From IMG/VR virus record IMGVR_UViG_3300021960_000024: a DNA stretch of 20,000 bases; one strand, written 5' to 3'. Below, in pieces: positions 6,574 to 19,918 of the stretch. A model generated the notes under the pieces. The model made no database searches. It was not told the origin of the DNA and saw nothing but the letters and a program-made list of their open reading frames with translations. Made by a program: the position numbers and the translations under genes. Source of the stretch: an uncultured virus (IMG/VR IMGVR_UViG_3300021960_000024) (lineage: Duplodnaviria > Heunggongvirae > Uroviricota > Caudoviricetes). How positions within the stretch are numbered: position 1 is the stretch's first letter; the number at the start of each line of letters is the position of its first letter.

Positions 6574-6873
6574 CTAAATAAATTCTATTAGATCATGATG
6601 TTTCTTAATGTAACAGTTGTAGCATAGAATGACAGACTGATCAATTAGGTGAAATACCTCTTTGCGGCTTTCATCACTTGTTCCAACTCTCTTGGATACT
6701 TTGCGTATCTCTGCATCATGGGGGTAGAATTTAAGACAAACGTGTTCTGCCTCACCACAGTGAATACAGGATTTGTCTGTGAGAAATTCGTTTAGGAGAT
6801 ATACTCGTTTCTGGTAATTTCTCCGTGAAACTTTCTTGATAGTGTCTTTGTATTTTTCATAATGATTATTCAT
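6574..6873 (-). CDS. Small HNH-like Zn-finger protein, possibly catalytically degenerate
   Basis: CIHCGE...LKFYPH...VILCYNCYIKKH (two CxxC in an HNH-like layout). Start placed at ATG 6873, just downstream of a minus-strand TATAAATA. Confidence 0.6.
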   Translation of the reverse strand: MNNHYEKYKDTIKKVSRRNYQKRVYLLNEFLTDKSCIHCGEAEHVCLKFYPHDAEIRKVSKRVGTSDESRKEVFHLIDQSVILCYNCYIKKHHDLIEFI

Positions 6874-6878
6874 GATTC

Positions 6879-6886
6879 TATTTATA
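6879..6886 (-). promoter_or_regulatory. T4-type late promoter TATAAATA for the antisense HNH-like gene
   Basis: The + strand reads tatttata; 5 nt separate the box from ATG 6873. Confidence 0.65.
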
Positions 6887-6929
6887 TGATATAACACTTA
6901 TAAAAACGAGTTTTGTAAAAGAGGTTTTT

Positions 6930-6937
6930 TATAAATA
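6930..6937 (+). promoter_or_regulatory. T4-type late promoter TATAAATA upstream of gp18
   Basis: Exact consensus in an intergenic position; AGGAG SD precedes ATG 6979. Confidence 0.85.
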
Positions 6938-6978: not shown

Positions 6979-9192
6979 ATGGGATTTCTAGTTTCACCCG
7001 GCGTTCATGTACGGGAAATTGATCTTACGAATGTTGTTCCATCTGTATCTACCTCTATCGGTGCAATCGCCGGTCCTTTTGCAAAAGGTCCAGTTAGTGC
7101 GGTTACTGCGATTAGTTCGGAAGAACAGTTACTACAGACATTTGGTAAGCCAAACAGTTCAAATTTTGAGTGGTGGTTCACTGCTGCAAACTTCTTGCAG
7201 TATGGTGACGCTCTTCGTGTGGTTCGTGCAGAATCAGGCATTTTAAACGCTGGTGCAACCAGTGGTATCCTCATTCGTGACGATGACCACTATGAAGATA
7301 GTTTCTCCACAGGACAGGGTACTCACGGTGAGTGGACTGCTCGTACCGCTGGTACTTGGGGTAACTCAATCGGTGTGGATATCTGCCCCAGCGCAAGAGC
7401 ATTTACTCAACCTCTGGGTACACTTAACCTAGTGAATGGTGCCGGTGCAATTGGTGATTTGCAAATCACAGTTGATGATCAAGATGCAACTGATGCGACA
7501 ATCGCAGTCGGTGACATTATTAAGTTTTTCACAAACAACTCTGTCACTGCAACATCTGACGGGGCAATCACAGTTCCATCTAAAACTCTTACGGTTGATG
7601 GTAACTCTGGTACAATCGCAGTTGGTCAACGTGTGATTGGTGCCGGTATCTCTGATGGTGGCATTCAGGCTAAAGTTGTAACAGTTACTTCTCAGACTTC
7701 TCTTATCCTTGATAAAGCAATTACGGTAGCTGACAATGTGCCTCTTGCATTTGATACGGTCACCGCAGTTGAAAGTGGTAACGTAGAATACGAAGTTACT
7801 TCTGTTTCTGGTGAAGTTCTAACTATTCGTCTACTTGATGATCCCGCCGGTGGTGGACTTAAAACTATTATTCCTGATAACTCTTACATTCAACGCCGTT
7901 GGCGTTTCAGTGACCTCTTTGATGCGCCTCCTGGCACATCCGATTGGTCAACTGCAAACGGGCGGGGTGAACAAGACGAACTTCACGTTGCAGTTTACGA
8001 CACAACAGGTGACATTACGGGTTATGCTGTGGATGTTAAGGGTCAGCGTGGACCTTCAGTTATCGAACTGTTCCCTGCTATGTCTAAAAACTCTGCTGCG
8101 AAGACAACACAGGGTGGAAATAACTACTACCCAGATGTTATCTTCCGTGGTTCTAATTACATCTACTGGACGGATCACATCTCTGGCGGTACTAACTGGG
8201 GTACAGACATTGCAACAGGTACAGACTATACACTAGTATCTGGTGTTAATGTTGACACTCTGACAGGTGGAACGGATGATTACTCCGTGACTGCTGGTGA
8301 AATTGAACGTGGCTATGACAAGTTCGCTGACACAGAAAATCTTGACATCAACCTAGTCATGGGTGGTCCAAGTTCTGGTGTTACAGATAGTGATGATGGT
8401 CAGGATACTTTTGTGACCATGATTACTGACCTTGTTGAATCACGAAGGGATTGCGTCGGTTTCGTATCCCCTTATCGTGCTGCAACAGTTGGTGTAACAT
8501 CATCCATCGCTCAAACATATAATGTAAAGAATGCATTTGACAAATGTCCATCGTCTTCGTATATGGTATACGATAGTGGATACAAGTACATGTATGATAA
8601 ATACAACGATGTGTATCGATTTGTTCCTTTAAACGGTGATACCGCTGGACTTTGTGCATACACAGATGGTGTTGCTGATCCTTGGTTCTCACCAGCTGGT
8701 TACAATCGTGGTGGTCTTCGTGGTGCAATCAAACTTTCTTATAACCCACAGAAAGCAGATCGTGACATTCTCTATAAGTCACGGATCAACCCAGTGGTTG
8801 ATTTCCCCGGTCAGGGTGTTACACTCTTTGGTGATAAGACTGCTCTCACAAAACCAAGTGCATTTGACCGCATTAACGTGCGTCGTCTGTTCCTTGTTCT
8901 TGAGAAAGCAATTGCCACTGCTTCTAAGTTCCAACTCTTTGAGTTCAATGATGAATTCACAAGAGCCCAGTTCCGTAATCTGGTAGAACCCTTCTTGCGG
9001 GATGTGCAGGGACGCCGTGGTATTTTCGACTTTAAGGTAGTTTGTGATACAACTAATAACACTGGTGAGGTCATTGACCGTAACGAGTTTATTGGTGACA
9101 TCTACATCAAACCAGCAAGGTCAATCAACTTTATTACACTAAACTTCATCGCCGTGCGAACTGGTGTTGCGTTTAGTGAGGTAGGAGGTTAA
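6979..9192 (+). CDS. gp18: Tail sheath protein gp18
   Basis: SPGVHVREIDLT, WFSPAGYNRG, FDRINVRRLF, FEFNDEFTR and YIKPARSINFI. Confidence 0.98.
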   Translation: MGFLVSPGVHVREIDLTNVVPSVSTSIGAIAGPFAKGPVSAVTAISSEEQLLQTFGKPNSSNFEWWFTAANFLQYGDALRVVRAESGILNAGATSGILIRDDDHYEDSFSTGQGTHGEWTARTAGTWGNSIGVDICPSARAFTQPLGTLNLVNGAGAIGDLQITVDDQDATDATIAVGDIIKFFTNNSVTATSDGAITVPSKTLTVDGNSGTIAVGQRVIGAGISDGGIQAKVVTVTSQTSLILDKAITVADNVPLAFDTVTAVESGNVEYEVTSVSGEVLTIRLLDDPAGGGLKTIIPDNSYIQRRWRFSDLFDAPPGTSDWSTANGRGEQDELHVAVYDTTGDITGYAVDVKGQRGPSVIELFPAMSKNSAAKTTQGGNNYYPDVIFRGSNYIYWTDHISGGTNWGTDIATGTDYTLVSGVNVDTLTGGTDDYSVTAGEIERGYDKFADTENLDINLVMGGPSSGVTDSDDGQDTFVTMITDLVESRRDCVGFVSPYRAATVGVTSSIAQTYNVKNAFDKCPSSSYMVYDSGYKYMYDKYNDVYRFVPLNGDTAGLCAYTDGVADPWFSPAGYNRGGLRGAIKLSYNPQKADRDILYKSRINPVVDFPGQGVTLFGDKTALTKPSAFDRINVRRLFLVLEKAIATASKFQLFEFNDEFTRAQFRNLVEPFLRDVQGRRGIFDFKVVCDTTNNTGEVIDRNEFIGDIYIKPARSINFITLNFIAVRTGVAFSEVGG

Positions 9193-11414: not shown

Positions 11415-11590
11415 TGAGTAAAGAATTTGTAGATGCTCTTGTAGATGGCAACAATATCGAAGCGGAAAAGGCATTTAGTATCACAATGGCTGCAAGGGTT
11501 GGTGATGCTTTAGAGGTTAAACGTAGAGAACTTGCTAACACATTTGTCAAATATCAGAATAAGGAAGCAGATGGAAATGAAGAGGATTGA
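11414..11590 (+). CDS. Small prohead core protein, gp67-like (58 aa)
   Basis: Hand-translated as MSKEFVDALVDGNNIEAEKAFSITMAARVGDALEVKRRELANTFVKYQNKEADGNEED*. The ATG overlaps the gp20 stop (TAATG), AAGGAG lies at 11401-11406, and the position matches T4 gp67. Below the ORF-track size cutoff. Confidence 0.75.
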   Translation: MSKEFVDALVDGNNIEAEKAFSITMAARVGDALEVKRRELANTFVKYQNKEADGNEED

Positions 11591-12922: not shown

Positions 12923-12953
12923 ATCATTACAGATGAAGGTAAGGAGACACCCT

Positions 12954-14222
12954 ATGTCAGAACTAGAACAAACAATTGAAGAGCTCGAAGCAGAAGTGCT
13001 TGCAGAGCTTGAAGAAGCGAGTGACGCCCAGACAAAGGGTGCTGCTCCTGCCGAAGGCAAAAAGAAAATTGATGCAGTAACACCCGGTGGCGAAGTTGCC
13101 GATGTTGGTGGTGCTGATCCAGAAGCTAAAGTTGAAAAAGATGCCGATGAAGATCGTGAAGAGAAAGCGATTGGTAAGAAGGCCGCTGCAGCTGCAAAAG
13201 CAGTTTCAGGTGATGCACAACAGAAGGGCGCTGGTAAATCAGACGGTCCTCAGAAACTCGCTGCTGGTCATGTACCAGAAGAGGGTGAAGTTGTCACAGA
13301 AGCAAAACGCATGACGAAAGAAATGCTCAAAGCTGCAATGCATAAAAAGATGGAAGGCATGAAAGCCGTCGATCTGAAAGCCGCATATGAGAATATGATG
13401 GCCCCTGCTGAAGAAGAAGAAGAGATGGACGAAGCTGCAATGTCAGAACTCAAAAAACTTGAGGACGCAAAAGCAGAGATCGAAGAGAAGATCAAGTCCA
13501 TCAATGTCAAGGAAGACGTTGACGCCCTCGTAGAAGGTGAAGACCTCTCCGAAGAGTTCAAGGACAAGGCAGCGACAATCTTTGAAGCTGCTGTTAAATC
13601 AAAAACCCGTGAGGAAATCTCTCGTATTCACGAAGATATGACTTCCGAGTTTGAAGTAAAACTGGAAGAGTCTGTTGATGCTCTTACAGAAAAAGTAGAT
13701 ACTTATCTCAACTACGTTGTAGAGACATGGACTAAAGAGAACGAGTTGGCAATCGAACGTGGCCTAAAGGGTGAGATTGCAGAAGACTTTATCTCTGGAC
13801 TGAAACAGTTGTTTGAAGATCACTATATTGATGTGCCTGATGAGAAATATGACCTTCTCGAAGCACAATCTGACAAAATTGCTGAACTGGAAGAGAAGGT
13901 TAACAGTGTCATGGAGCAGAATATCTCCCTTACATCTGTTAAGTCCCAACTGGTTCGGGAACAGGTTATCTCTGAAGCTTGCGAAGAGTTGACCGATACC
14001 GAAATTGAAAAGTTCAAGTCTCTTACTGAAGATGTTGACTTTGTTGACGAAGAGTCCTTCAAAGCAAAACTCAACACCTTGAAGGAAAGTTATTTCCCTA
14101 AGACGATTGTTGAACAAACTTTTGATGATGAAGATGGTGGCACCGCACAGGACATTGATACGACTGAAGCTATGAGCGCTTACATGTCGGCAATCAGTCG
14201 TAACAAAGAGCGTGCCCAATAA
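12954..14222 (+). CDS. gp22: Prohead core scaffold protein gp22
   Basis: LSEEFKDKAATIFEAAV, YLNYVVE.W..EN.LAIE.G and LKESYF; start moved to ATG 12954 (AAGGAG at 12941-12946). Confidence 0.95.
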   Translation: MSELEQTIEELEAEVLAELEEASDAQTKGAAPAEGKKKIDAVTPGGEVADVGGADPEAKVEKDADEDREEKAIGKKAAAAAKAVSGDAQQKGAGKSDGPQKLAAGHVPEEGEVVTEAKRMTKEMLKAAMHKKMEGMKAVDLKAAYENMMAPAEEEEEMDEAAMSELKKLEDAKAEIEEKIKSINVKEDVDALVEGEDLSEEFKDKAATIFEAAVKSKTREEISRIHEDMTSEFEVKLEESVDALTEKVDTYLNYVVETWTKENELAIERGLKGEIAEDFISGLKQLFEDHYIDVPDEKYDLLEAQSDKIAELEEKVNSVMEQNISLTSVKSQLVREQVISEACEELTDTEIEKFKSLTEDVDFVDEESFKAKLNTLKESYFPKTIVEQTFDDEDGGTAQDIDTTEAMSAYMSAISRNKERAQ

Positions 14223-14258: not shown

Positions 14259-15596
14259 ATGTTTCAGACAGAACATCTACAAGAAAAGTGGCAGCCAGTC
14301 CTAGAACACCCCGATCTACCAAAGATTGAGGATTCTTATAAGCGGGCAGTTACTACTCTCATCCTAGAGAACCAAGAAAAAGCAATGAAGGAAGACCGTG
14401 GTTTTCTTTCGGAAACAGCACCAACCAACAGCATGGGTGGTGGACAGATGGACACATGGGATCCAATTTTGATCTCACTAGTTCGTCGTGCAATGCCTAA
14501 CCTAATCGCTTATGACGTTTGTGGTGTGCAGCCAATGACAGGTCCAACGGGTCTGATCTTTGCTATGCGTTCAACACTTGCTTCACAGGATGGTGCAGAA
14601 GCTCTCGTTGACGAAGCTTTCCCAGACATCTCAAACCAGAATGCTGCCGGTACAATCGGTGGTGGCGACGTTGGTGCAACAGAGACTAACCCTGCTGTTC
14701 TTAATGATTCCTCGCCAGGAACATATACTTCCGCAACAGGTATGACACGCAGTCAGGCTGAAGCACTTGGTGATAGCGGCACGAACGCTTTCGCTGAAAT
14801 GGCATTCTCGATTGAGAAGTCAACGGTTACTGCCGTTTCCCGTGCGCTCAAAGCTGAGTACACGATGGAACTTGCACAGGACTTGAAGGCAATTCATGGT
14901 CTTGACGCCGAGACAGAACTCAGCAACATTCTTTCTACAGAAATCCTTGCTGAAATCAACCGTGAAGTCATTCGTTCGCTGTATGTTACAGCCGTTGCGG
15001 GTGCTCAGGTTAATACAACTGCTGCTGGTACTTTTGATCTGGACACCGACTCAAATGGTCGTTGGTCAGTTGAGAAGTTCAAGGGTCTAATGTTCCAGAT
15101 CGAACGTGACGCCAATGCGATTGGTCAACAGACCCGTCGTGGCAAGGGTAACATGCTGATCGTTTCAGCTGACGTTGCTTCTGCTCTTCAGATGGCCGGT
15201 GTTCTTGATTACACACCTGCTCTGAACAACAACCTCGCCGTTGACGACACATCTTCTACCTTCGCTGGTACAATGAATGGTCGTTTCAAGGTATATGTTG
15301 ATCCCTATTCTGCAAATGTTGCTGCTAGTCAGTATTATGTTTGTGGTTACAAGGGCACATCACCTTATGATGCTGGTTTCTTCTACTGCCCATACGTTCC
15401 ACTACAGATGGTCCGTGCGGTTGGTGAGAATTCCTTCCAGCCTAAGATTGGTTTCAAGACCCGTTATGGTCTTGCTGCTAACCCATTCGCTGGTGCGGGT
15501 GCGGTTGCTGCTGGTGACACGGTTAATACCGATGCTTCACTGGATGCGAACACCAATGCTTGGTATCGTCGGGTTAAAGTTACTAACCTTATGTAA
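14259..15596 (+). CDS. gp23: Major capsid protein gp23
   Basis: KWQPVL, VQPMTGPTGLIFAMR, RALKAEYT.ELAQDLKAIHGLDAE.EL, FYCPYVPL and FQPKIGFKTRYG; AAGGAG SD. Confidence 0.99.
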   Translation: MFQTEHLQEKWQPVLEHPDLPKIEDSYKRAVTTLILENQEKAMKEDRGFLSETAPTNSMGGGQMDTWDPILISLVRRAMPNLIAYDVCGVQPMTGPTGLIFAMRSTLASQDGAEALVDEAFPDISNQNAAGTIGGGDVGATETNPAVLNDSSPGTYTSATGMTRSQAEALGDSGTNAFAEMAFSIEKSTVTAVSRALKAEYTMELAQDLKAIHGLDAETELSNILSTEILAEINREVIRSLYVTAVAGAQVNTTAAGTFDLDTDSNGRWSVEKFKGLMFQIERDANAIGQQTRRGKGNMLIVSADVASALQMAGVLDYTPALNNNLAVDDTSSTFAGTMNGRFKVYVDPYSANVAASQYYVCGYKGTSPYDAGFFYCPYVPLQMVRAVGENSFQPKIGFKTRYGLAANPFAGAGAVAAGDTVNTDASLDANTNAWYRRVKVTNLM

Positions 15597-15617: not shown

Positions 15618-15646
15618 GGGGGAGCATCTTGCTCCCCCTTTTTTTT
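15618..15646 (+). terminator. Intrinsic terminator after gp23
   Basis: GGGGGAGCA-TCT-TGCTCCCCC hairpin followed by T8. Confidence 0.92.
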
Positions 15647-15648
15647 GT

Positions 15649-15656
15649 TATAAATA
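15649..15656 (+). promoter_or_regulatory. T4-type late promoter TATAAATA upstream of gp3
   Basis: Exact consensus immediately after the terminator; 5 nt separate it from ATG 15662. Confidence 0.85.
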
Positions 15657-15661
15657 GATAC

Positions 15662-16246
15662 ATGGCAACTGCACAATCACCCCTCGCAAGACAACCGGAC
15701 CAGTTAGACTATGCAAGTCCAACTCAGTTCCGTTTTGGCATCAAACAATTACCAAAGGTAGAGTTCTTTACGATCAATGCAAACCTACCCGGCATCGGCG
15801 GCGCATCAGTAGATTTTGCAAACCCATTCAACAACATTCCAATCATGGGTGATAAACTCACTTATGCGGACCTTACTATCACATTTATCGTTGATGAGTA
15901 TCTGGAAAATTATCAATCACTACACAACTGGCTTACTGGTTATGGATTTCCATCCGACAGAGCTGAGTTTAGAGCGCATAGAGATGTGACCTCAAACACA
16001 CCAGCTGGTGGTTCAACACCACCTGTTGACCTTATTAGAAATATAACTCCTGATAAAGCAATGTACTCAGATGCATTTCTTATGATTTTATCGAATAAGA
16101 ATAACCCAATTCTAAATGTTAACTTTCAAAATGTATTTCCTATTTCACTCAGCGGATTAGATTACACGCAAGGTGCAACAGATGTCGAATATATGACTGC
16201 CGATGTTACTTTCAAATATCAAATCTATAAATTTGAGGGTGTCTAA
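15662..16246 (+). CDS. gp3: Tail tube terminator / head-proximal tail completion protein gp3
   Basis: SPTQFRF.I..LPKVEFF...ANLPGI, F.VDE.LENY..LHNWL and FPISLSGL; position after gp23 as in marine T4-likes. Start moved to ATG 15662. Confidence 0.88.
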   Translation: MATAQSPLARQPDQLDYASPTQFRFGIKQLPKVEFFTINANLPGIGGASVDFANPFNNIPIMGDKLTYADLTITFIVDEYLENYQSLHNWLTGYGFPSDRAEFRAHRDVTSNTPAGGSTPPVDLIRNITPDKAMYSDAFLMILSNKNNPILNVNFQNVFPISLSGLDYTQGATDVEYMTADVTFKYQIYKFEGV

Positions 16247-16253
16247 ATAAGAG

Positions 16254-16372
16254 TGAGCAGATTTGGTAAGCTTTAACAATTATCAAATCTTAGACTTAAT
16301 TACTGGTGACAACTCGTTCGAACTCATCAGGGTCAATATATCACAGAGAGAAACCAAACTGCTCATTTTTTT
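16254..16372 (+). ncRNA. Candidate structured RNA (small RNA or uvsY leader), family unknown
   Basis: TCTAAATA at 16242-16249 upstream; closing helix 16254-16267/16353-16365; internal helices 16259-16269/16280-16290 and 16303-16309/16324-16330; T7 run at 16366-16372. Confidence 0.5.
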
Positions 16373-16386
16373 ATTATGAGGTAAAC

Positions 16387-16818
16387 ATGGATTTAGAGAC
16401 ACTAAAACGAACTGCAAGGGAAGACCTTCCCGTATCTGATCTAGAACACATTGATCAGGAATCTTTCAAAAATCAATTGATCAAACAGAAGTGGTTGGAC
16501 TTCAAGGCAGACTTTGAACTGCTTTTGGTTAAAGCTAAAACTGACCACCAACTTCTATATCGACAGAAGTGGGAATACTATGGTGGTAAGGCAGATGCAA
16601 AAGTGTATGCTGCAAAACCATTTGACATTAGGGTCATGAAGACAGACCTTACAATGTACATTCAGTCCGACGAGGACATTCTTAGAATTTCAAATAAAAT
16701 TGGGTACTACGATTCATGCGTAGACTACTGCAAGGGTGTGATTAAGTCCATCGACAATCGTGGTTGGGATATTCGCAACGCTACTGATTGGAAGAAGTTT
16801 GAAGCTGGGATGATATGA
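16387..16818 (+). CDS. uvsY: Recombination mediator UvsY
   Basis: KWEYYGGKA...YAAKPF, YIQSDEDI and I.NRGW.IRNA.DWKKFEAG; start ATG 16387 with a GAGGT SD. Confidence 0.9.
   Translation: MDLETLKRTAREDLPVSDLEHIDQESFKNQLIKQKWLDFKADFELLLVKAKTDHQLLYRQKWEYYGGKADAKVYAAKPFDIRVMKTDLTMYIQSDEDILRISNKIGYYDSCVDYCKGVIKSIDNRGWDIRNATDWKKFEAGMI
16791..16818 (+). repeat. 28-bp imperfect direct repeat, copy 1 (uvsY 3' end; copy 2 at 18063-18090)
   Basis: gaagaagtttgaagctgggatgatatga vs gaaaaagtttgaagctggtatgatttga, 25/28 identical. Confidence 0.9.
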
Positions 16819-18074
16819 GTAAATTAAAAGACTTGGAGTGGTTCTGTCCTCAACCATTTATGAATACGTTGATGAATAATAATCTTGTTCCACAATCTTG
16901 TTGTGTGTTACAAGGTTGGCCAGGCGATGATTTTCTGGGTGATACGGGACAGACCTCTATTATGGAAGTTCATAATTCAGATTTTATGAAGGACTTTCGT
17001 AAAGAATTTCTAAATGGTGGTGGTCCAATCTCTGATAGATTATGCCTTGTCTGTAAGGAACAGGAGAAACATTCCCCCACAGAAAGTCATCGATTGATGT
17101 ATCTAGATAAGTTTGATGAAGAACATGGAATGTATAGAGAACACTTAGAGGCTCTTGAGGATTACATTGATACAGACCAAAGCGATTCTATGTATTTGAC
17201 ATTTGAATATAACGCTCCTAATAATTTTTGTAATTTGAAATGCAACATGTGTTCATCCCAACAATCTTCAACATATGCTAAAGAGAATAAAGCTATAGGT
17301 GAGCATATTCCCAATGAATGGCAACAAGAAACTCATATAAGTATTAAAGACGATATGTCGAAATATGAACCTATTCTTAAAAATCTTATAGAGTTAAAAC
17401 TAGTTGGGGGAGAGACACTTGCTCTACCACAAAACTATGAGATGATGGATAAAACGATAGAGATGGGCGTGTCTAAACAGATGGGACTTGTTATAACTAC
17501 TAATGCTACGCTGACTCCAAAGATGGGTAAACATGGAGATGTGTTTGATTATGTTCCTCATTTTAAAAATTGTCAAATGAATGTATCTATAGAATGTTGG
17601 GGCGAGAAGAACAACTATATTAGATTTCCATCTAAGTGGAAAAAGATTATGGAGAATGTTGAAAGATTTTCCAAGATGCCCAGAACTAATATAATGTTTG
17701 CAACTTGTGTGAGTTCTTTAACAATAGGATATCTCCACGAAATAGCTGAAGGCGTTGATGCCCTGATAGAAAAACAACCAGATATATTTAACGATTTTTC
17801 AACTGGCAGTTTGGTTATTGGAGAACCTAATTTATACACGGTAACAGCAATACCACTCGATATTAGAGAATTGTATTTAGAAAAAATATATAAACATGCT
17901 ACTGAACGACACATTAAAACATTTATGAAACTGGCGAACTACTTAACAGACATGCCCTTTGACGAAAGCTTACATAACAGGATGATGATTGATGTAGCGA
18001 AACGTGATAAATTTCGAGGAACCGTGTTGACAGATGTTTTTCCAGAGTGGAAACCTTACTATGAAAAAGTTTGA
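16815..18074 (+). CDS. Radical SAM enzyme with an N-terminal twitch/SPASM-like Cys domain
   Basis: CNLKCNMC (CxxxCxxC), LVGGET, ITTNAT and NNYIRFPSKW; N-terminal CPQPF...CC...CLVC..QE. Confidence 0.88.
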   Translation: MSKLKDLEWFCPQPFMNTLMNNNLVPQSCCVLQGWPGDDFLGDTGQTSIMEVHNSDFMKDFRKEFLNGGGPISDRLCLVCKEQEKHSPTESHRLMYLDKFDEEHGMYREHLEALEDYIDTDQSDSMYLTFEYNAPNNFCNLKCNMCSSQQSSTYAKENKAIGEHIPNEWQQETHISIKDDMSKYEPILKNLIELKLVGGETLALPQNYEMMDKTIEMGVSKQMGLVITTNATLTPKMGKHGDVFDYVPHFKNCQMNVSIECWGEKNNYIRFPSKWKKIMENVERFSKMPRTNIMFATCVSSLTIGYLHEIAEGVDALIEKQPDIFNDFSTGSLVIGEPNLYTVTAIPLDIRELYLEKIYKHATERHIKTFMKLANYLTDMPFDESLHNRMMIDVAKRDKFRGTVLTDVFPEWKPYYEKV

Positions 18075-18090
18075 AGCTGGTATGATTTGA
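18063..18090 (+). repeat. 28-bp imperfect direct repeat, copy 2 (duplicate of the uvsY C-terminal coding sequence)
   Basis: Encodes KKFEAGMI* again, in the frame opened by ATG 18061. Confidence 0.9.
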
Positions 18091-18440
18091 TGACTTGGGG
18101 TTACCATACACTTTTTGATTGCGAAGAATGTCCAGTAGAAAAATTTACTGAAGAAAATATTCGCTCATTTATTTTAAATATCGTAAAAGATATAGGTATG
18201 AAATCATATGGTGATCCGATGATTGCTCACTTTGCATCACACAATCCTGATGTTGCAGGGTTTAGTTTCTGTCAAATGATTGAAACAAGCAATATCACAG
18301 GACATTTTGTAGATAAAACTGGTGACTGTTATATCGATATTTTTAGTTGTAAGGATTACGATAAGGGTCTTGCAACTGGAATTATTGTGGATTTCTTTAA
18401 CCCTAAAGAAATTAAAATGAAATATATTGAGAGGGGTTAA
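18090..18440 (+). CDS. AdoMetDC (SpeD)-fold pyruvoyl-dependent decarboxylase homolog
   Basis: G.H...D...C start, GFS...MIETSNITGH, YIDIFSCK and terminal IERG match the SpeD class 1B layout. Substrate is uncertain, so no symbol is given. Confidence 0.78.
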   Translation: MTWGYHTLFDCEECPVEKFTEENIRSFILNIVKDIGMKSYGDPMIAHFASHNPDVAGFSFCQMIETSNITGHFVDKTGDCYIDIFSCKDYDKGLATGIIVDFFNPKEIKMKYIERG

Positions 18441-18442
18441 TT

Positions 18443-19918
18443 GTGCGTATATCAAAAAAGAACGAAGTCTATCTAGTTCTAGATGATATGACAGATTCTA
18501 CTCGACAAGAGTTGACAGAGTTCTTTACCTTTGAGGTTCCCGGTTTTAAATTTATGCCAACCTACCGAAGTCGAATGTGGGATGGAAAGATACGACTCTT
18601 CTCCCCAGCTACAGGTGAGATATATGTTGGATTGCTTCAATATATTAGGGGTTTCTGCCAGAAAAACAAAATTGAATATATATTAGAAGAAGGAGTTGAA
18701 AATGAGCGGGTTATTGTTCGTCAAGTGGTTAGAGATTTCATCAGGTCACTTAAACCAAAATCTGGGGGGAAGTCTCTCAAAGTGCGTGACTACCAAATTG
18801 ATGCGGTACATCACGGTATTGCCAGAAATCGTGCTCTTCTTGTTTCTCCTACTGCTTCGGGTAAATCACTCATAATCTACTCGTTAGTTCGTTATTATCA
18901 TATGATGGGATTGAAGACCCTGATACTAGTTCCTACCACCTCACTTGTGGAACAGATGTATTCAGACTTCGAAGACTACGGATGGAGCTCTGGTACATAC
19001 TGTCAGAAGGTATATCAGGGACATTCCAGTAAGGTTGAGAAGGACGTTGTTATATCGACATGGCAGTCTATCTACAAGTTACCAAAGAAATATTTTGAAC
19101 AGTTCGGTTGTGTCATTGGTGATGAGGCGCATATGTTTAAGGCTAAATCTTTAACTGGTATCATGACCAAGTTACACCTATGTAAGTACAGATTCGGTCT
19201 TACAGGCACCCTAGACGGGACGCAGACGCACCAACTTGTTTTAGAAGGTCTATTCGGTCCTGTTGAAAAAGTTACTACCACAAAGGAGTTAATTGAGAAG
19301 AAATCTCTTGCTGACCTTAAAATCAAGTGCATTATTTTAAAGCATGAGAATATACGAGAGAGAATGACTTATGCAGAGGAACTACAATATCTAGGCGAAC
19401 ATGAACTTAGAAACGAATTTCTTGCTGGGCTGTTGATGCATCTTCCCGGTAATACATTATGTTTATATCAATTGGTAGAAAAACACGGCAAACCTCTTTA
19501 TGAGGAAGTCATGAAATCTCAAGAGGAAGGTTTCTTTGATGACAAATTGCGAAAGGTATTTTTTATCTATGGTAACACAAGTACCACAGAAAGAGAAAGG
19601 ATACGATCTGTTGTGGAGGGTGAAAAAAACTCTATCACCATTGCATCCTATGGCACCTTTAGCACTGGTATTAATATTCGCAATATTCACAACATCGTGC
19701 TCGCAAGTCCGTCTAAGTCTAGAATTCGAGTGCTCCAGAGTATCGGTAGAGGATTGCGTCAGGGGGAGAATAAAGATTCCGTTTTGATATTTGATATTGC
19801 AGATGATTTGACTTTTAGACACCAGAGTAATTTTACACTTAACCACTTCCAAGAACGCATAAATATCTATAACACAGAACAATTCAACTATGAAATTAGT
19901 AAGGTAAACCTAAAATGA
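18443..19918 (+). CDS. uvsW: DNA helicase UvsW (SF2)
   Basis: WDGKIRLF, RDYQ, SPTASGKS, GDEAH, GLTGT, ASYGTFSTGINI and LQSIGRGLR. Confidence 0.97.
   Translation: MRISKKNEVYLVLDDMTDSTRQELTEFFTFEVPGFKFMPTYRSRMWDGKIRLFSPATGEIYVGLLQYIRGFCQKNKIEYILEEGVENERVIVRQVVRDFIRSLKPKSGGKSLKVRDYQIDAVHHGIARNRALLVSPTASGKSLIIYSLVRYYHMMGLKTLILVPTTSLVEQMYSDFEDYGWSSGTYCQKVYQGHSSKVEKDVVISTWQSIYKLPKKYFEQFGCVIGDEAHMFKAKSLTGIMTKLHLCKYRFGLTGTLDGTQTHQLVLEGLFGPVEKVTTTKELIEKKSLADLKIKCIILKHENIRERMTYAEELQYLGEHELRNEFLAGLLMHLPGNTLCLYQLVEKHGKPLYEEVMKSQEEGFFDDKLRKVFFIYGNTSTTERERIRSVVEGEKNSITIASYGTFSTGINIRNIHNIVLASPSKSRIRVLQSIGRGLRQGENKDSVLIFDIADDLTFRHQSNFTLNHFQERINIYNTEQFNYEISKVNLK

What the first reader, a model, noticed from the sequence alone, without database searches (positions are those of the whole stretch)
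16242..16386. Switch-like structured RNA between gp3 and uvsY
Seen: this 140-bp gap is the longest intergenic stretch in an otherwise tightly packed window. It begins after a late-promoter-like TCTAAATA and ends in T7. TGAGCAG(A)TTTGGT (16254-16267) pairs with ACCAAACTGCTCA (16353-16365) in 13 bp with one bulge. The same 5' strand can instead form AGATTTGGTAA/TTATCAAATCT (16259-16269/16280-16290), so the two helices are mutually exclusive. A third helix, CTGGTGA/TCATCAG, encloses a T-loop-like GTTCGAA. A further TATCAAATCT at 16217-16226 inside gp3 offers another partner on read-through transcripts only. Inference: either a standalone ~120-nt late small RNA, or an attenuator/riboswitch-like leader controlling uvsY, the radical SAM gene, the decarboxylase and uvsW. 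I do not recognise it as a known family.
Basis: partly seen in the sequence, partly recalled or inferred. Interest (0 to 1): 0.72.

Follow-up and report, generated by a model that had tools for sequence, protein, structure and literature searches.

The report
Conserved structured RNA upstream of uvsY
A folded RNA of about 110 bases, made from a late promoter just ahead of the recombination gene uvsY, is conserved with compensating base changes across a group of marine phages and matches no known RNA family; it probably throttles transcription into uvsY, but what controls it is unknown.

Summary
Window 16255-16372 holds one copy of an RNA family absent from Rfam (0 hits). It has a late-promoter-like TCTAAATA, then 5 nt, then GAGCAG...CUGCUC pairing the two ends (P1), then U7, then SD and AUG of uvsY.

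The family sits at the same place, after the gp3-like tail gene and before uvsY. I found 70 unique versions in 184 loci, plus 40 unique versions in the Melnitz (OM43 phage) clade. It is single-copy and essentially confined to phage contigs.

Covariation supports P1, the apical hairpin P3 and a long-range helix joining the 5' and 3' segments (P1x/P1y). In the Melnitz clade the key P1y pair reads G-C 20, U-A 14, A-U 5, U.U 1 of 40.

The U-run is clade-specific: at least 5 T in 55 of 70 versions but only 2 of 40 in the Melnitz clade. Termination therefore cannot be the family-wide function.

Best reading (0.4): a late 5' leader that works as a leaky terminator (attenuator) in the window's clade. 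Rivals include a stable small RNA as the product and a passive 5' stabiliser. A SAM or polyamine riboswitch is unlikely. A boxA / rrn-leader resemblance was tested and weakened. No transcript-end data were available.

The parts
16242..16249 (+). Late-promoter-like TCTAAATA (TATAAATA in most relatives). It overlaps the stop codon of the gp3-like gene.
   Evidence: All 4 canonical TATAAATA sites in the window lie just upstream of genes. T[AC]TAAATA lies 3-7 nt before GAGCAG in 65 of 70 unique elements, with a 5-nt spacer in 53. In the Melnitz clade 39 of 40 have it.
16255..16372 (+). The whole RNA element, from the inferred transcript start (first G of P1) to the end of the U-run.
   Evidence: Covariance model R1 matches 16254-16373 at 146.1 bits, E 4e-30. 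It is the only + strand match in the window.
16255..16260 (+). P1 5' strand, GAGCAG.
   Evidence: Pairs with 16359-16364. 100% paired in 56-57 sequences, with one G-C to A-U exchange. In the Melnitz clade: GAGCAG/CTGCTC 34, GAGTAG/CTACTC 5, GAACAG/CTGTTC 1 of 40.
16261..16269 (+). Shared 5' segment ATTTGGTAA. It is the 5' strand of the local hairpin P2; 16262-16267 is also the 5' strand of the long-range helix P1x.
   Evidence: P1x key pair: G-C 33, A-U 23 of 56. P2 counterpart pair: G.U 34, A-U 20, G-C 3 of 57.
16271..16278 (+). Conserved block CTTTAACA. It forms the loop of P2 in fold X. CTTT (16271-16274) is the 5' strand of P1y in fold Y.
   Evidence: Invariant in the 39 unique uvsY-ascertained sequences. 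In the Melnitz clade it is ACTTTAACA in only 15 of 40, and its fifth base covaries with the partner.
16280..16288 (+). P2 3' strand, TTATCAAAT.
   Evidence: The helix is 84.4% paired over 57 sequences. Subclade-specific complementary pairs are seen by eye.
16293..16334 (+). Apical domain P3. P3a is GACT (16293-16296) with GGTC (16331-16334). P3b is CTGGTGA (16303-16309) with TCATCAG (16324-16330). P3c is a 2-bp cap, 16316-16317 with 16322-16323.
   Evidence: P3a: A-U 38, U-A 16-17. P3b: G-C 19, A-U 17 at one pair. P3c: U-A 25, G-C 12. P3b and P3c are replaced or missing in groups C and E-I.
16334..16340 (+). Conserved unpaired CAATATA.
   Evidence: AATATA-type block kept in all groups. Role unknown.
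16347..16350 (+). AGAG, 3' strand of P1y.
   Evidence: In the MFE fold. P1y is 100% paired in 56 sequences with one-sided changes only. True covariation is seen in the Melnitz clade.
16353..16358 (+). ACCAAA, 3' strand of P1x.
16359..16364 (+). P1 3' strand, CTGCTC.
16366..16372 (+). T7 run directly after P1, the U-tract of a putative intrinsic terminator.
   Evidence: At least 5 T within 3 nt of P1 in 55 of 70 unique elements, but only 2 of 40 in the Melnitz clade.
16378..16389 (+). GAGG Shine-Dalgarno (16378-16381) and uvsY ATG (16387-16389). Only 14 nt separate the U-run from the ATG, which leaves no room for another promoter.
   Evidence: Spacing from the end of P1 to the AUG is 21-23 nt in groups A-E.

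Best explanation
Window 16255-16364 encodes a ~110-nt structured RNA domain. It forms the very 5' end of a late transcript and is a member of an undescribed RNA family of Melnitz-like marine myophages.

Shown:
- It is conserved in position, between the gp3-like tail gene and uvsY.
- A T4-type late promoter motif sits at a fixed 4-6 nt distance.
- The two ends pair (P1).
- A long-range helix joins the 5' segment to the 3' segment (P1x: GGU/ACC or GAU/AUC; P1y: ACUUN/NAAGU or CUUU/AGAG).
- There is a variable apical hairpin (P3) and a conserved unpaired AAUAUA.
- The same 5' segment can instead fold into a local hairpin (P2) that is also kept in relatives.

Inferred for the window's clade:
- The rod P1+P1x+P1y, followed at once by U5-8, is an intrinsic terminator placed between the only nearby promoter and uvsY. 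The element therefore works as a leaky terminator (attenuator) in the leader of uvsY, radical SAM, SAM decarboxylase and uvsW.
- P2 forms first during transcription.
- The purine stretch AGAG can nucleate on CUUU exposed in the P2 loop. The 3' strand can then displace P2 to build the rod.
- Transcripts in which this happens before the polymerase leaves the U-run end as a ~115-nt RNA. The others read through into uvsY.

What shifts the balance is not known. Candidates are polymerase speed, a protein or a small molecule.
For: 1. Conservation. Of 78 full-length loci among the 80 best uvsY relatives, 77 carry the element directly upstream of uvsY. The cultured OM43 phage Melnitz has one copy at the same place. 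There are 70 unique versions in 184 loci.

2. Promoter coupling. T[AC]TAAATA plus a 3-7 nt spacer occurs in 65 of 70 and TATAAATA plus 4-5 nt in 39 of 40. The promoter is kept even where the upstream gene differs. T4 late promoters are a -10-like element at the -10 position (PMC7892883, passages read).

3. Structure.
- Fold with P1, P2 and P3: 98.4% paired, 5 pairs changed on both sides, 0 of 500 shuffles as good.
- Fold with P1, P1x, P1y and P3 on 56 sequences: 96.6% paired, 13 pairs changed on both sides, 0 of 500.
- On a MAFFT alignment not fitted to any structure, fold Y is 89.9% paired, with a covariation score of 0.197 against 0.090 for shuffles, 0 of 500.
- The ACUUN/NAAGU pair reads G-C 20, U-A 14, A-U 5, U.U 1 of 40.

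4. A model built with fold Y on groups A-C scores held-out groups better than the fold X model: D (5 of 5), E, F, H and 3 of 4 G sequences gain 0.6-10.6 bits (L211 loses 0.7).

5. Both helices for the shared 5' segment persist with different sequences. Ensemble predictions flip between them within groups.

6. Strand. G.U pairs are frequent, and the minus strand scores 18.5 against 146.1 bits.

7. Terminator context. The U-run is kept in 55 of 70. Only 14 nt separate it from the uvsY AUG. The phage uses a canonical terminator followed by TATAAATA after the capsid gene.

8. One metatranscriptome contig (X2 record 16, 16280-16514) bridges the U-run into uvsY. This is compatible with read-through, but DNA carry-over is not excluded.
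Against: - The U-run is not family-wide. In the Melnitz clade at least 5 T occurs in 2 of 40, T4 in 13 and none in 25. In the pattern-found set 12 of 70 have no run and 3 have only T4. Attenuation can therefore at most be a clade-specific use of an older RNA whose core function I have not identified.
- RNAalifold on the 56-sequence alignment keeps only P1 and P3a. On the 39-sequence alignment it keeps P1, P3 and 3 bp of P2.
- Single-sequence statistics are weak. MFE z is -1.98. Duplex energies against shuffled partners reach z <= -2 for P2 in 28 of 70 and for P1x/P1y in 9 of 70. Both reach z <= -1.5 in only 1 of 70.
- A terminator stem enclosing about 85 nt is unusual, and the simple terminator scan does not list it.
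- With P1 closed, predicted ribosome-site accessibility is the same in both folds. No output is visible in clades without the U-run.
- Group H has its own sigma-70-like promoter between the element and uvsY.
- No transcript 5' or 3' ends could be observed.
- The alignments behind searches were fitted to the structures tested.
Confidence: 0.4

Rival explanations
1. The RNA itself is the product. It would be a stable, ends-paired late small RNA acting in trans, for example as a decoy or binding partner for a host or phage protein. One speculative version is a small 6S-like mimic, with a duplex, a bubble carrying the -10-like UAAUAU, and a second duplex. In the window's clade the U-run releases the RNA. 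Elsewhere it would be cut out of the leader at the AU-rich stretch after P1.
For: - It has its own promoter at a fixed distance, and its two ends pair, as in many stable RNAs.
- In the window's clade promoter, RNA and terminator form a complete unit.
- Internal loops are more conserved than a mere stabiliser would need.
- The gene after it varies: 2OG oxygenase in L002, and genes without Pfam matches in L241 and L208.
- Folding state does not change predicted RBS access.
Against: - No terminator in the Melnitz clade: at least 5 T in 2 of 40. No processing site has been demonstrated.
- It always lies on the coding strand, 14-50 nt before the next start codon, and never elsewhere. It is single-copy in Melnitz (141 kb), with none in Mosig or HTVC008M.
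- No match to 6S or any other Rfam family, even at E <= 10.
- No complementary target for the conserved block was found in the window.
- The 6S comparison rests on recall, not on a test.
Confidence: 0.25
2. It is a constitutive structural leader with no switch. The 5'-terminal rod protects the late uvsY mRNA from 5'-end-dependent decay. In the window's clade it also serves as the terminator that stops the strong gp3 (late structural) transcripts. P2 would then be a folding intermediate or an accident of AU-rich sequence.
For: - The transcript start is flush with P1 in all clades. That 5'-terminal stem-loops stabilise bacterial mRNAs is recalled knowledge, not tested here.
- Fold Y has the better covariation.
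- P2 is weak in groups G and H, at -1.1 to -1.3 kcal/mol.
- RBS access is independent of the fold.
Against: - A stabiliser or terminator does not need about 30 conserved unpaired positions. This phage uses a simple GC hairpin as terminator elsewhere.
- P2 is kept with five different complementary sequence pairs in Melnitz subclades. It is significant against shuffles in 28 of 70.
- In the Melnitz clade the distal 5' block copies the 5' strand of hairpin P4 (GAAC/GAAC, UGAC/UAAC, AAAC/AAAC). This is the signature of two helices competing for one strand.
Confidence: 0.15
3. It is a nut-like or rrn-leader mimic. The block CUUUAACA and the following UUAUCA..AAUCU would imitate the boxA-spacer region of proteobacterial rRNA leaders and load host Nus factors, making late transcription read through the U-run.
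For: - The window shares 11 contiguous bases, CUUUAACAAUU, with the E. coli rrnH leader.
- A pattern drawn from the phage family, with its second gap widened to 0-4 nt after I had seen the E. coli sequence, hits the E. coli K-12 chromosome 7 times. All 7 are rrn leaders, and the reversed control gives 0.
- Gamma-proteobacterial rrn leaders keep GCUCUUUAACAA, 12 nt, then AAUCUGUGUGGG.
- The boxA consensus is GYTCTTTAANA (PMC5725501, passages read).
- NusA binds the spacer acaauuua (PMC2724277, passages and table read).
Against: - Positions 1-3 of boxA (GYT) are AAG, AAA or GAA in the phage. NusB/NusE read bases 1-8 specifically (PMC3177189, section read).
- In motif-independent sampling the block is CUUUAACA in only 15 of 40, and its variable base covaries with a pairing partner. 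It is therefore a helix strand, not a fixed protein site.
- A Pelagibacter rrn leader has no such block.
- 80 fetched bacterial matches to the phage-like version look like coding-sequence chance hits; only 1 of 80 has GYT before it.
- The second gap of the pattern was widened after I had seen the E. coli sequence.
Confidence: 0.05
4. It is an RNA-primed replication origin, a positional analogue of T4 oriF = ori(uvsY). A promoter next to uvsY would make a transcript that forms an R-loop primer, with RNA folding deciding hybrid formation.
For: - T4 oriF is a ~100-bp unit of promoter plus downstream unwinding element at uvsY. UvsW, which is encoded downstream here too, unwinds such R-loops (PMC3016281, passages read).
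- Promoter plus a ~100-bp non-coding unit next to uvsY is what is seen here.
Against: - T4 R-loop formation needs no specific sequence, whereas this element is conserved in sequence and covaries as an RNA fold.
- Its G+C (0.34) was not compared with the flanks, so no A+T-rich unwinding element is shown.
- The promoter is late-type, while T4 oriF uses a middle promoter that is shut off late.
Confidence: 0.04
5. It is a riboswitch for SAM, a polyamine or a related metabolite, controlling the radical SAM and SAM decarboxylase genes downstream.
For: - Multi-helix fold with conserved unpaired bases in a 5' leader followed by a terminator.
- The radical SAM gene (PF04055) and the SAM decarboxylase gene (PF02675) lie downstream in the window.
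Against: - Those two genes are lineage-specific. In L002 the helicase follows uvsY directly, and the annotated genes after uvsY in Melnitz and Mosig include neither.
- The first gene after the element is uvsY, a 2OG oxygenase or a gene with no Pfam match, so there is no common metabolic theme.
- No match to any known riboswitch class in Rfam at E <= 10.
Confidence: 0.02

Closest known systems
Leader attenuators and riboswitch expression platforms (terminator versus anti-terminator hairpins in 5' leaders)
   Same: Promoter, then structured leader, then stem plus U-run, then SD and AUG within 14 nt. One strand has two alternative partners, and both partners are kept in relatives.
   Different: The terminator stem is the closing helix of the whole domain and encloses about 85 nt. 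No ligand, leader peptide or tRNA partner can be seen. The U-run is missing in part of the family. There is no Rfam match.
Cis-acting processive antitermination RNAs (HK022 put, Bacillus EAR); recalled, not tested
   Same: A conserved structured RNA of about 70-120 nt just after a promoter and just before a terminator, with needed genes beyond it.
   Different: No sequence or model match (Rfam). No evidence that polymerase is modified. Here the structure itself seems to supply the terminator stem.
rrn leader boxA-spacer and lambda nut sites
   Same: CUUUAACA(AUU) is identical to boxA positions 4-11 plus the spacer. AAUCU follows at a similar distance. The context concerns termination.
   Different: The GYT part read by NusB is absent. 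The block varies and covaries as a helix strand in the Melnitz clade. It was not found in a Pelagibacter rrn leader.
T4 oriF / ori(uvsY)
   Same: Promoter plus about 100 bp of non-coding DNA adjoining uvsY, with uvsW nearby.
   Different: T4 uses a MotA middle promoter and a sequence-independent A+T-rich unwinding element. Here the promoter is late-type and the RNA fold is conserved by covariation.
6S RNA and other ends-paired stable small RNAs; recalled, not tested beyond Rfam
   Same: A rod-like RNA with paired ends and a conserved internal bubble. It carries a -10-like UAAUAU on the strand that runs from an upstream duplex to a downstream duplex.
   Different: It is half the size of 6S or less. 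There is no Rfam 6S match and no evidence of polymerase binding.

Membership tests
Any Rfam 15 family (4227 models, including riboswitches, ribozymes, 6S and phage RNAs) | Match to the covariance model at the gathering score, or at least at E <= 10 | tested here: not met
   0 matches in the whole window at gathering score. 0 matches at E <= 10 in 16100-16500 with permissive filters.
   0 genes in the window. The GTTCGAA loop is not conserved.
Intrinsic (Rho-independent) terminator | G+C-rich stem directly followed by a U-run | tested here: met
   GAGCAG/CUGCUC (4 G-C of 6) plus the 6-bp P1x, then T7 starting 1 nt after the stem. At least 5 T in 55 of 70 unique elements.
Intrinsic (Rho-independent) terminator | Compact hairpin (loop of a few nt), and conservation of the U-run across the family | tested here: not met
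   The stem encloses about 85 nt and is not listed by the consensus scan. The U-run of at least 5 T occurs in only 2 of 40 Melnitz-clade elements.
Riboswitch | Conserved structured aptamer in a 5' leader, with covariation | tested here: met
Riboswitch | Consistent association with genes of one pathway | tested here: not met
   Downstream genes are uvsY, a 2OG-Fe(II) oxygenase, or genes with no Pfam match. The radical SAM and SAM decarboxylase genes are seen only in the window's lineage.
Riboswitch | Direct ligand binding that changes the fold | not testable with these tools
   Needs in-line probing, ITC or similar.
boxA / Nus-factor site | Match to GYTCTTTAANA, including bases 1-8 read by NusB/NusE | tested here: not met
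   The window has AAGCTTTAACA. Positions 4-11 match and 1-3 do not (consensus from PMC5725501; base-specific contacts from PMC3177189).
boxA / Nus-factor site | Conservation of the site in relatives | tested here: not met
   The block is ACTTTAACA in 15 of 40 Melnitz-clade elements. The variable base covaries with a pairing partner in 39 of 40.
T4-type late promoter | TATAAATA-like -10 element upstream of the transcript start, with no -35 element | tested here: inconclusive
   The motif is present and positionally conserved. The window's copy is TCTAAATA. No transcript-start data exist, and use by a gp55-type factor is inferred.
T4 oriF-type origin | Promoter plus A+T-rich unwinding element without sequence requirement; R-loop formation | not tested
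   Only positional likeness. Element G+C is 0.34. The strong sequence conservation is unlike a T4 unwinding element.

The most novel reading that the evidence does not exclude
The element is a new class of two-state regulatory RNA. It would be conserved in Melnitz-like marine myophages, a lineage whose cultured member infects the OM43 clade, and would time the recombination module (uvsY-uvsW) in late infection by sensing a still unknown signal.

The local hairpins (P2, and P4 where present) and the long-range rod (P1x/P1y) compete for the same strands. The exposed CUUU loop would serve as a toehold for the switch.

The signal could be a host or phage protein, nucleotide pools acting through polymerase speed, or a metabolite.
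Probability: 0.2. Interest if true: 0.85.

Novelty: new member of a known kind. Interest (0 to 1): 0.68.

Why it matters
Few conserved structured RNAs are described for T4-like phages (my recollection; not searched), and my three targeted searches found none described at uvsY in these marine phages.

This one is well suited to follow-up:
- It is short, at 83-126 nt.
- It is single-copy and found in well over 200 loci.
- Covariation supports it at several helices.
- It is tied to a defined promoter.
- It sits at the entrance of the recombination and replication-restart genes uvsY and uvsW.
- It is present in a cultured virus-host pair, Melnitz on OM43, so its ends, fold and function can be tested directly.

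If it is a switch, it would show how a phage lacking the T4 middle-transcription regulators (my recollection for this group) doses recombination proteins late in infection. If it is a stable small RNA, it would be a new phage non-coding RNA of unknown target.

Either way it deserves a curated RNA family, so that these intergenic regions stop being annotated as empty.

Tried and rejected
1. Metatranscriptomes. Only assembled contigs were available. They cannot show ends, strand or level. Parts without cover and depth differences are not used as evidence.

2. The upstream TATCAAATCT inside gp3 as a third partner. It encodes YQIY and changes synonymously in relatives (TACCAAATCT, TATCAGATAT and others). 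It is absent where the upstream gene differs.

3. Coding potential. The uvsY frame is open back to a GTG at 16306. Relatives differ by indels that are not multiples of 3, for example U-run lengths of 5-8, so the region is not coding.

4. Sequestration of the SD. Accessibility of -14..+3 is identical in the two constrained folds in 21 of 21 tested sequences. A CACCU/AGGUG pairing seen in Melnitz is not kept in other subclades (by eye).

5. A sigma-70 promoter inside the element. No hexamer pair at proper spacing in the window (and inspection). In the Melnitz clade the TTGAGT-to-TAATAT spacing varies from 12 to 19 nt.

6. A trans target of the conserved loop. No + strand TGTTAAAG in the window, and the near matches are no more frequent than chance (36 against 27.6 +/- 4.7).

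7. boxA / rrn mimicry. Pursued through and weakened (see rivals). A BLAST of the element against E. coli genomes gave nothing. R1 finds nothing in E. coli K-12.

8. Hammerhead likeness of CUGAUGA. This segment covaries as a helix strand and has no Rfam match.

9. Earlier notes of this scan. Nothing by sequence or by words.

10. Literature.
- 'pelagimyophage' with 'uvsY': 0 papers.
- 'uvsY', 'RNA motif', 'covariation' (any two of the three terms): none of the 15 listed titles mentions uvsY.
- 'pelagiphage', 'structured RNA' and related terms: nothing relevant among the 15 listed.
- The Melnitz paper (PMC9004378) has 0 occurrences of uvsY, sRNA or noncoding. Its supplements were not read.
- These searches do not cover subscription journals.
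Full report
**What is there**

The window is part of a T4-like marine myophage. The genes around the finding are:

| Coordinates | Gene |
|---|---|
| 12933-14222 | head scaffold |
| 14259-15596 | major head protein |
| 15629-16246 | gp3 / tail-tube-like protein |
| 16387-16818 | UvsY |
| 16815-18074 | radical SAM protein |
| 18087-18440 | SAM decarboxylase |
| 18443-19918 | UvsW-like helicase |

The nearest cultured relatives by UvsY are the OM43 phage Melnitz (42.7% identity) and the Pelagibacter phages Mosig (42.0%) and HTVC008M (37.1%).

The 140 nt between the tail gene and uvsY (16247-16386) is the longest non-coding stretch of the window. The only other apparent gap, at 11415-11531, carries an ATG-started frame.

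**Check of the observation**

- TCTAAATA at 16242-16249
- the 13-bp helix with one bulge, 16254-16267 with 16353-16365
- the competing helix, 16259-16269 with 16280-16290
- CTGGTGA/TCATCAG at 16303-16309 and 16324-16330
- T7 at 16366-16372

The long helix is in the MFE and centroid folds. The fold energy alone is only mildly unusual: -28 kcal/mol, z = -1.98, 5 of 200 shuffles as good. No Rfam family matches, at gathering score over the whole window or at E <= 10 around the site. ARAGORN finds no tRNA.

**Conservation**

A search for UvsY relatives in viral contigs gave 270 relatives, of which the best 80 loci were kept.
- Two loci are too short upstream.
- Of the other 78, 77 have the element directly before uvsY (39 unique sequences, window included).
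- One, L002, has it about 630 nt upstream, with a 2OG-Fe(II) oxygenase gene (PF13759) inserted between the element's SD and uvsY.

Melnitz itself has a diverged copy before its uvsY (36.1 bits, E 8e-6). That is the only copy in its 141-kb genome. Mosig and HTVC008M have none.

A motif scan of viral contigs that excluded the window's own type gave 55 loci, of which 47 are true members by the covariance model. The same kind of scan gave:
- 1 true member among 73 pattern matches in 596 Gb of prokaryote genomes, a 5.6-kb contig of a MAG that is probably phage DNA
- 30 true members among 80 fetched metagenome matches

Altogether the motif-defined set holds 70 unique elements in 184 loci. All those scans required CTTTAACA, so I also sampled the Melnitz clade by its UvsY protein alone. 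That gave 80 loci and 40 unique upstream regions, all with the element.

**Promoter and ends**

T[AC]TAAATA lies 3-7 nt before GAGCAG in 65 of 70 unique elements. The spacer is 5 nt in 53, 6 nt in 9 and 4 nt in 3. In the Melnitz clade TATAAATA lies 5 nt (28) or 4 nt (11) before it, in 39 of 40. The motif is kept where the upstream gene is different.

In the window the four canonical TATAAATA sites all lie just upstream of genes. T4 late promoters are a -10-like element at the -10 position (PMC7892883, passages read). That the start lies about 6-7 nt after the motif is my recollection. With a 5-nt spacer, the transcript would begin at or next to the first G of P1. This is an inference; no transcript-start data exist.

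**Structure**

Three parts are secure.

- *P1, GAGCAG/CUGCUC.* It is 100% paired. It exchanges to GAACAG/CUGUUC and GAGUAG/CUACUC.
- *The apical hairpin P3.* Its base pairs flip A-U to U-A in 16-17 of 56-57 sequences. Its upper part shows G-C 19, A-U 17 at one pair. The whole upper part is replaced by another hairpin in group C and is absent in groups E-I.
- *A long-range helix between the 5' segment and the 3' segment.*
  - P1x exchanges GGU/ACC with GAU/AUC: G-C 33, A-U 23 of 56.
  - P1y is CUUU/AGAG in the window.
  - In the Melnitz clade P1y is ACUUN/NAAGU, with N-N reading G-C 20, U-A 14, A-U 5, U.U 1 of 40.
  - On a MAFFT alignment not fitted to any structure, this fold is 89.9% paired, with a covariation score of 0.197 against 0.090 for shuffles (0 of 500).
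  - A covariance model built with this fold on groups A-C scores held-out groups above the model built with the alternative fold: D (5 of 5), E, F, H and 3 of 4 G sequences gain 0.6-10.6 bits (L211 loses 0.7).

**The alternative pairing**

Evidence for P2:
- It is 84.4% paired over 57 sequences, with G.U 34, A-U 20, G-C 3 at the pair that corresponds to the P1x exchange.
- In the Melnitz clade it appears as five different complementary pairs: GGUG/CACC, GGUUGA/UCAACU, GUAC/GUAU, GGUUG/CAAUC and ACGGUG/CAUCGU. This is read by eye; MAFFT columns do not capture these register shifts.
- That clade also has a 3' hairpin P4 (GAAC/GUUC, GUAAC/GUUAC, AAAAC/GUUUU). Its 3' strand is the partner of the distal 5' block in P1y, and the distal block changes together with the P4 5' strand. 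This is what two helices competing for one strand look like.
- Predicted ensembles flip between the two folds within groups.

Evidence against, or limits:
- Duplex energies against shuffled partners reach z <= -2 for P2 in 28 of 70 and for P1x/P1y in 9 of 70. Both reach z <= -1.5 in only 1 of 70.
- RNAalifold keeps neither helix in the 56-sequence alignment.
- The alignments were fitted to the tested structures.

I therefore rate a genuine two-state RNA as plausible, not shown.

**What it does**

In the window's clade the rod is followed at once by U5-8 (55 of 70 unique elements). The uvsY start follows 14 nt later with no room for a promoter. The phage uses a plain GC hairpin plus U-run and a fresh TATAAATA after its capsid gene. 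So a terminator stands between the only nearby promoter and uvsY.

This makes the element a leaky terminator in a leader, that is, an attenuator. It necessarily also yields a ~115-nt RNA. One RNA-library contig bridges the U-run into uvsY (X2 record 16, 16280-16514). That fits read-through, but DNA carry-over is not excluded.

Several points weigh against termination as the family's core function:
- The U-run is nearly absent in the Melnitz clade: at least 5 T in 2 of 40.
- Group H has its own sigma-70-like promoter (TTGACA, 17 nt, TAATAT or TAAGAT) between the element and uvsY.
- With P1 closed, predicted RBS access does not depend on the fold.

The older, family-wide role is therefore still open. 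It could be a stable RNA product, a 5' stabiliser, or a switch with an output I cannot see.

**Leads that were tested and weakened**

*SAM or polyamine riboswitch.* In L002 the helicase follows uvsY directly, and the annotated genes after uvsY in Melnitz and Mosig include no radical SAM or SAM decarboxylase gene. The first downstream gene varies.

*boxA / rrn-leader mimicry.*
- The window shares CUUUAACAAUU with the E. coli rrn leader.
- A pattern drawn from the phage family hits the E. coli K-12 chromosome 7 times, and all 7 are rrn leaders. I had widened the second gap of that pattern after seeing the E. coli sequence.
- Against it, the GYT part read by NusB/NusE is missing (PMC5725501 and PMC3177189, passages or section read).
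- The block is CUUUAACA in only 15 of 40 Melnitz-clade elements and covaries as a helix strand.
- A Pelagibacter rrn leader lacks it.

*T4 oriF.* This T4 origin lies at uvsY and is a promoter plus unwinding element (PMC3016281, passages read). The likeness is positional only.

**Novelty**

No Rfam family matches, and nothing appears in earlier notes of this scan. The searches and the Melnitz paper text turned up nothing either. Supplements and subscription journals were not covered.

It is a new RNA family of a known general kind, a structured phage leader or small RNA. It has good covariation and a cultured host-phage system in which to test it.

Noticed in passing
window 15618-15656: A canonical terminator (GGGGGAGCATCTTGCTCCCCC plus T8) follows the major head gene. 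A TATAAATA at 15649-15656 follows it and lies inside the ORF as listed from TTG 15629. The true start of the gp3-like gene is therefore probably downstream of 15656.
   Followed up: partly
window 6879-6937: Two TATAAATA motifs on opposite strands lie in the 81-nt gap between the minus-strand ORF 6574-6897 and the plus-strand ORF 6979-9192. This looks like a divergent late-promoter pair.
   Followed up: no
L002 116-730; L217 (upstream ORF, as oriented): A 2OG-Fe(II) oxygenase gene (PF13759) lies after the element in L002. A look-alike (similar by eye, not scanned) lies before the element in group B loci such as L217. In Mosig a 2OG oxygenase follows uvsY. The gene moves around the element while the promoter and RNA stay put.
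   Followed up: partly
L219 826-880; also L363, L370, L395, L418 and L236: Group H carries a near-consensus sigma-70 promoter (TTGACA, 17 nt, TAATAT or TAAGAT) between the element and uvsY. It ends about 5 nt before the ATG, which suggests a nearly leaderless early uvsY transcript beside the late one.
   Followed up: no
window 16376-16384: The ATG in ATTATGAGGTAA is invariant in the 39 unique sequences of groups A-C, while the purines after it vary. It opens a mini-ORF, ATG AGG TAA. CTCA(T) at the end of P1 can pair with (A)TGAG. Significance unknown.
   Followed up: no
window 16271-16290 versus L452 283-306 (E. coli rrnH leader): An ordered match links the phage element and the rrn boxA-spacer region: CTTTAACA, TTATCA, AATCT. 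Gamma-proteobacterial rrn leaders keep GCTCTTTAACAA, 12 nt, then AATCTGTGTGGG. It is probably not functional mimicry, but the coincidence is unexplained.
   Followed up: yes
window 16815-18440: A radical SAM gene and a SAM decarboxylase gene sit between uvsY and uvsW in this lineage only. They form an auxiliary metabolic insert in the recombination module.
   Followed up: partly
L323 (genome contigs, 5.6-kb contig of a MAG labelled Vicingus): A full element (103 bits) sits on a short contig binned into a bacterial MAG. It is most likely a phage contig mis-binned, not a bacterial copy.
   Followed up: no
L203 2400-2500 (HTVC008M, upstream of uvsY): HTVC008M has a 100-nt gap before uvsY, with TATAAATG and a GUGG...CCAC hairpin but no match to this family. 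It may hold a different leader.
   Followed up: no
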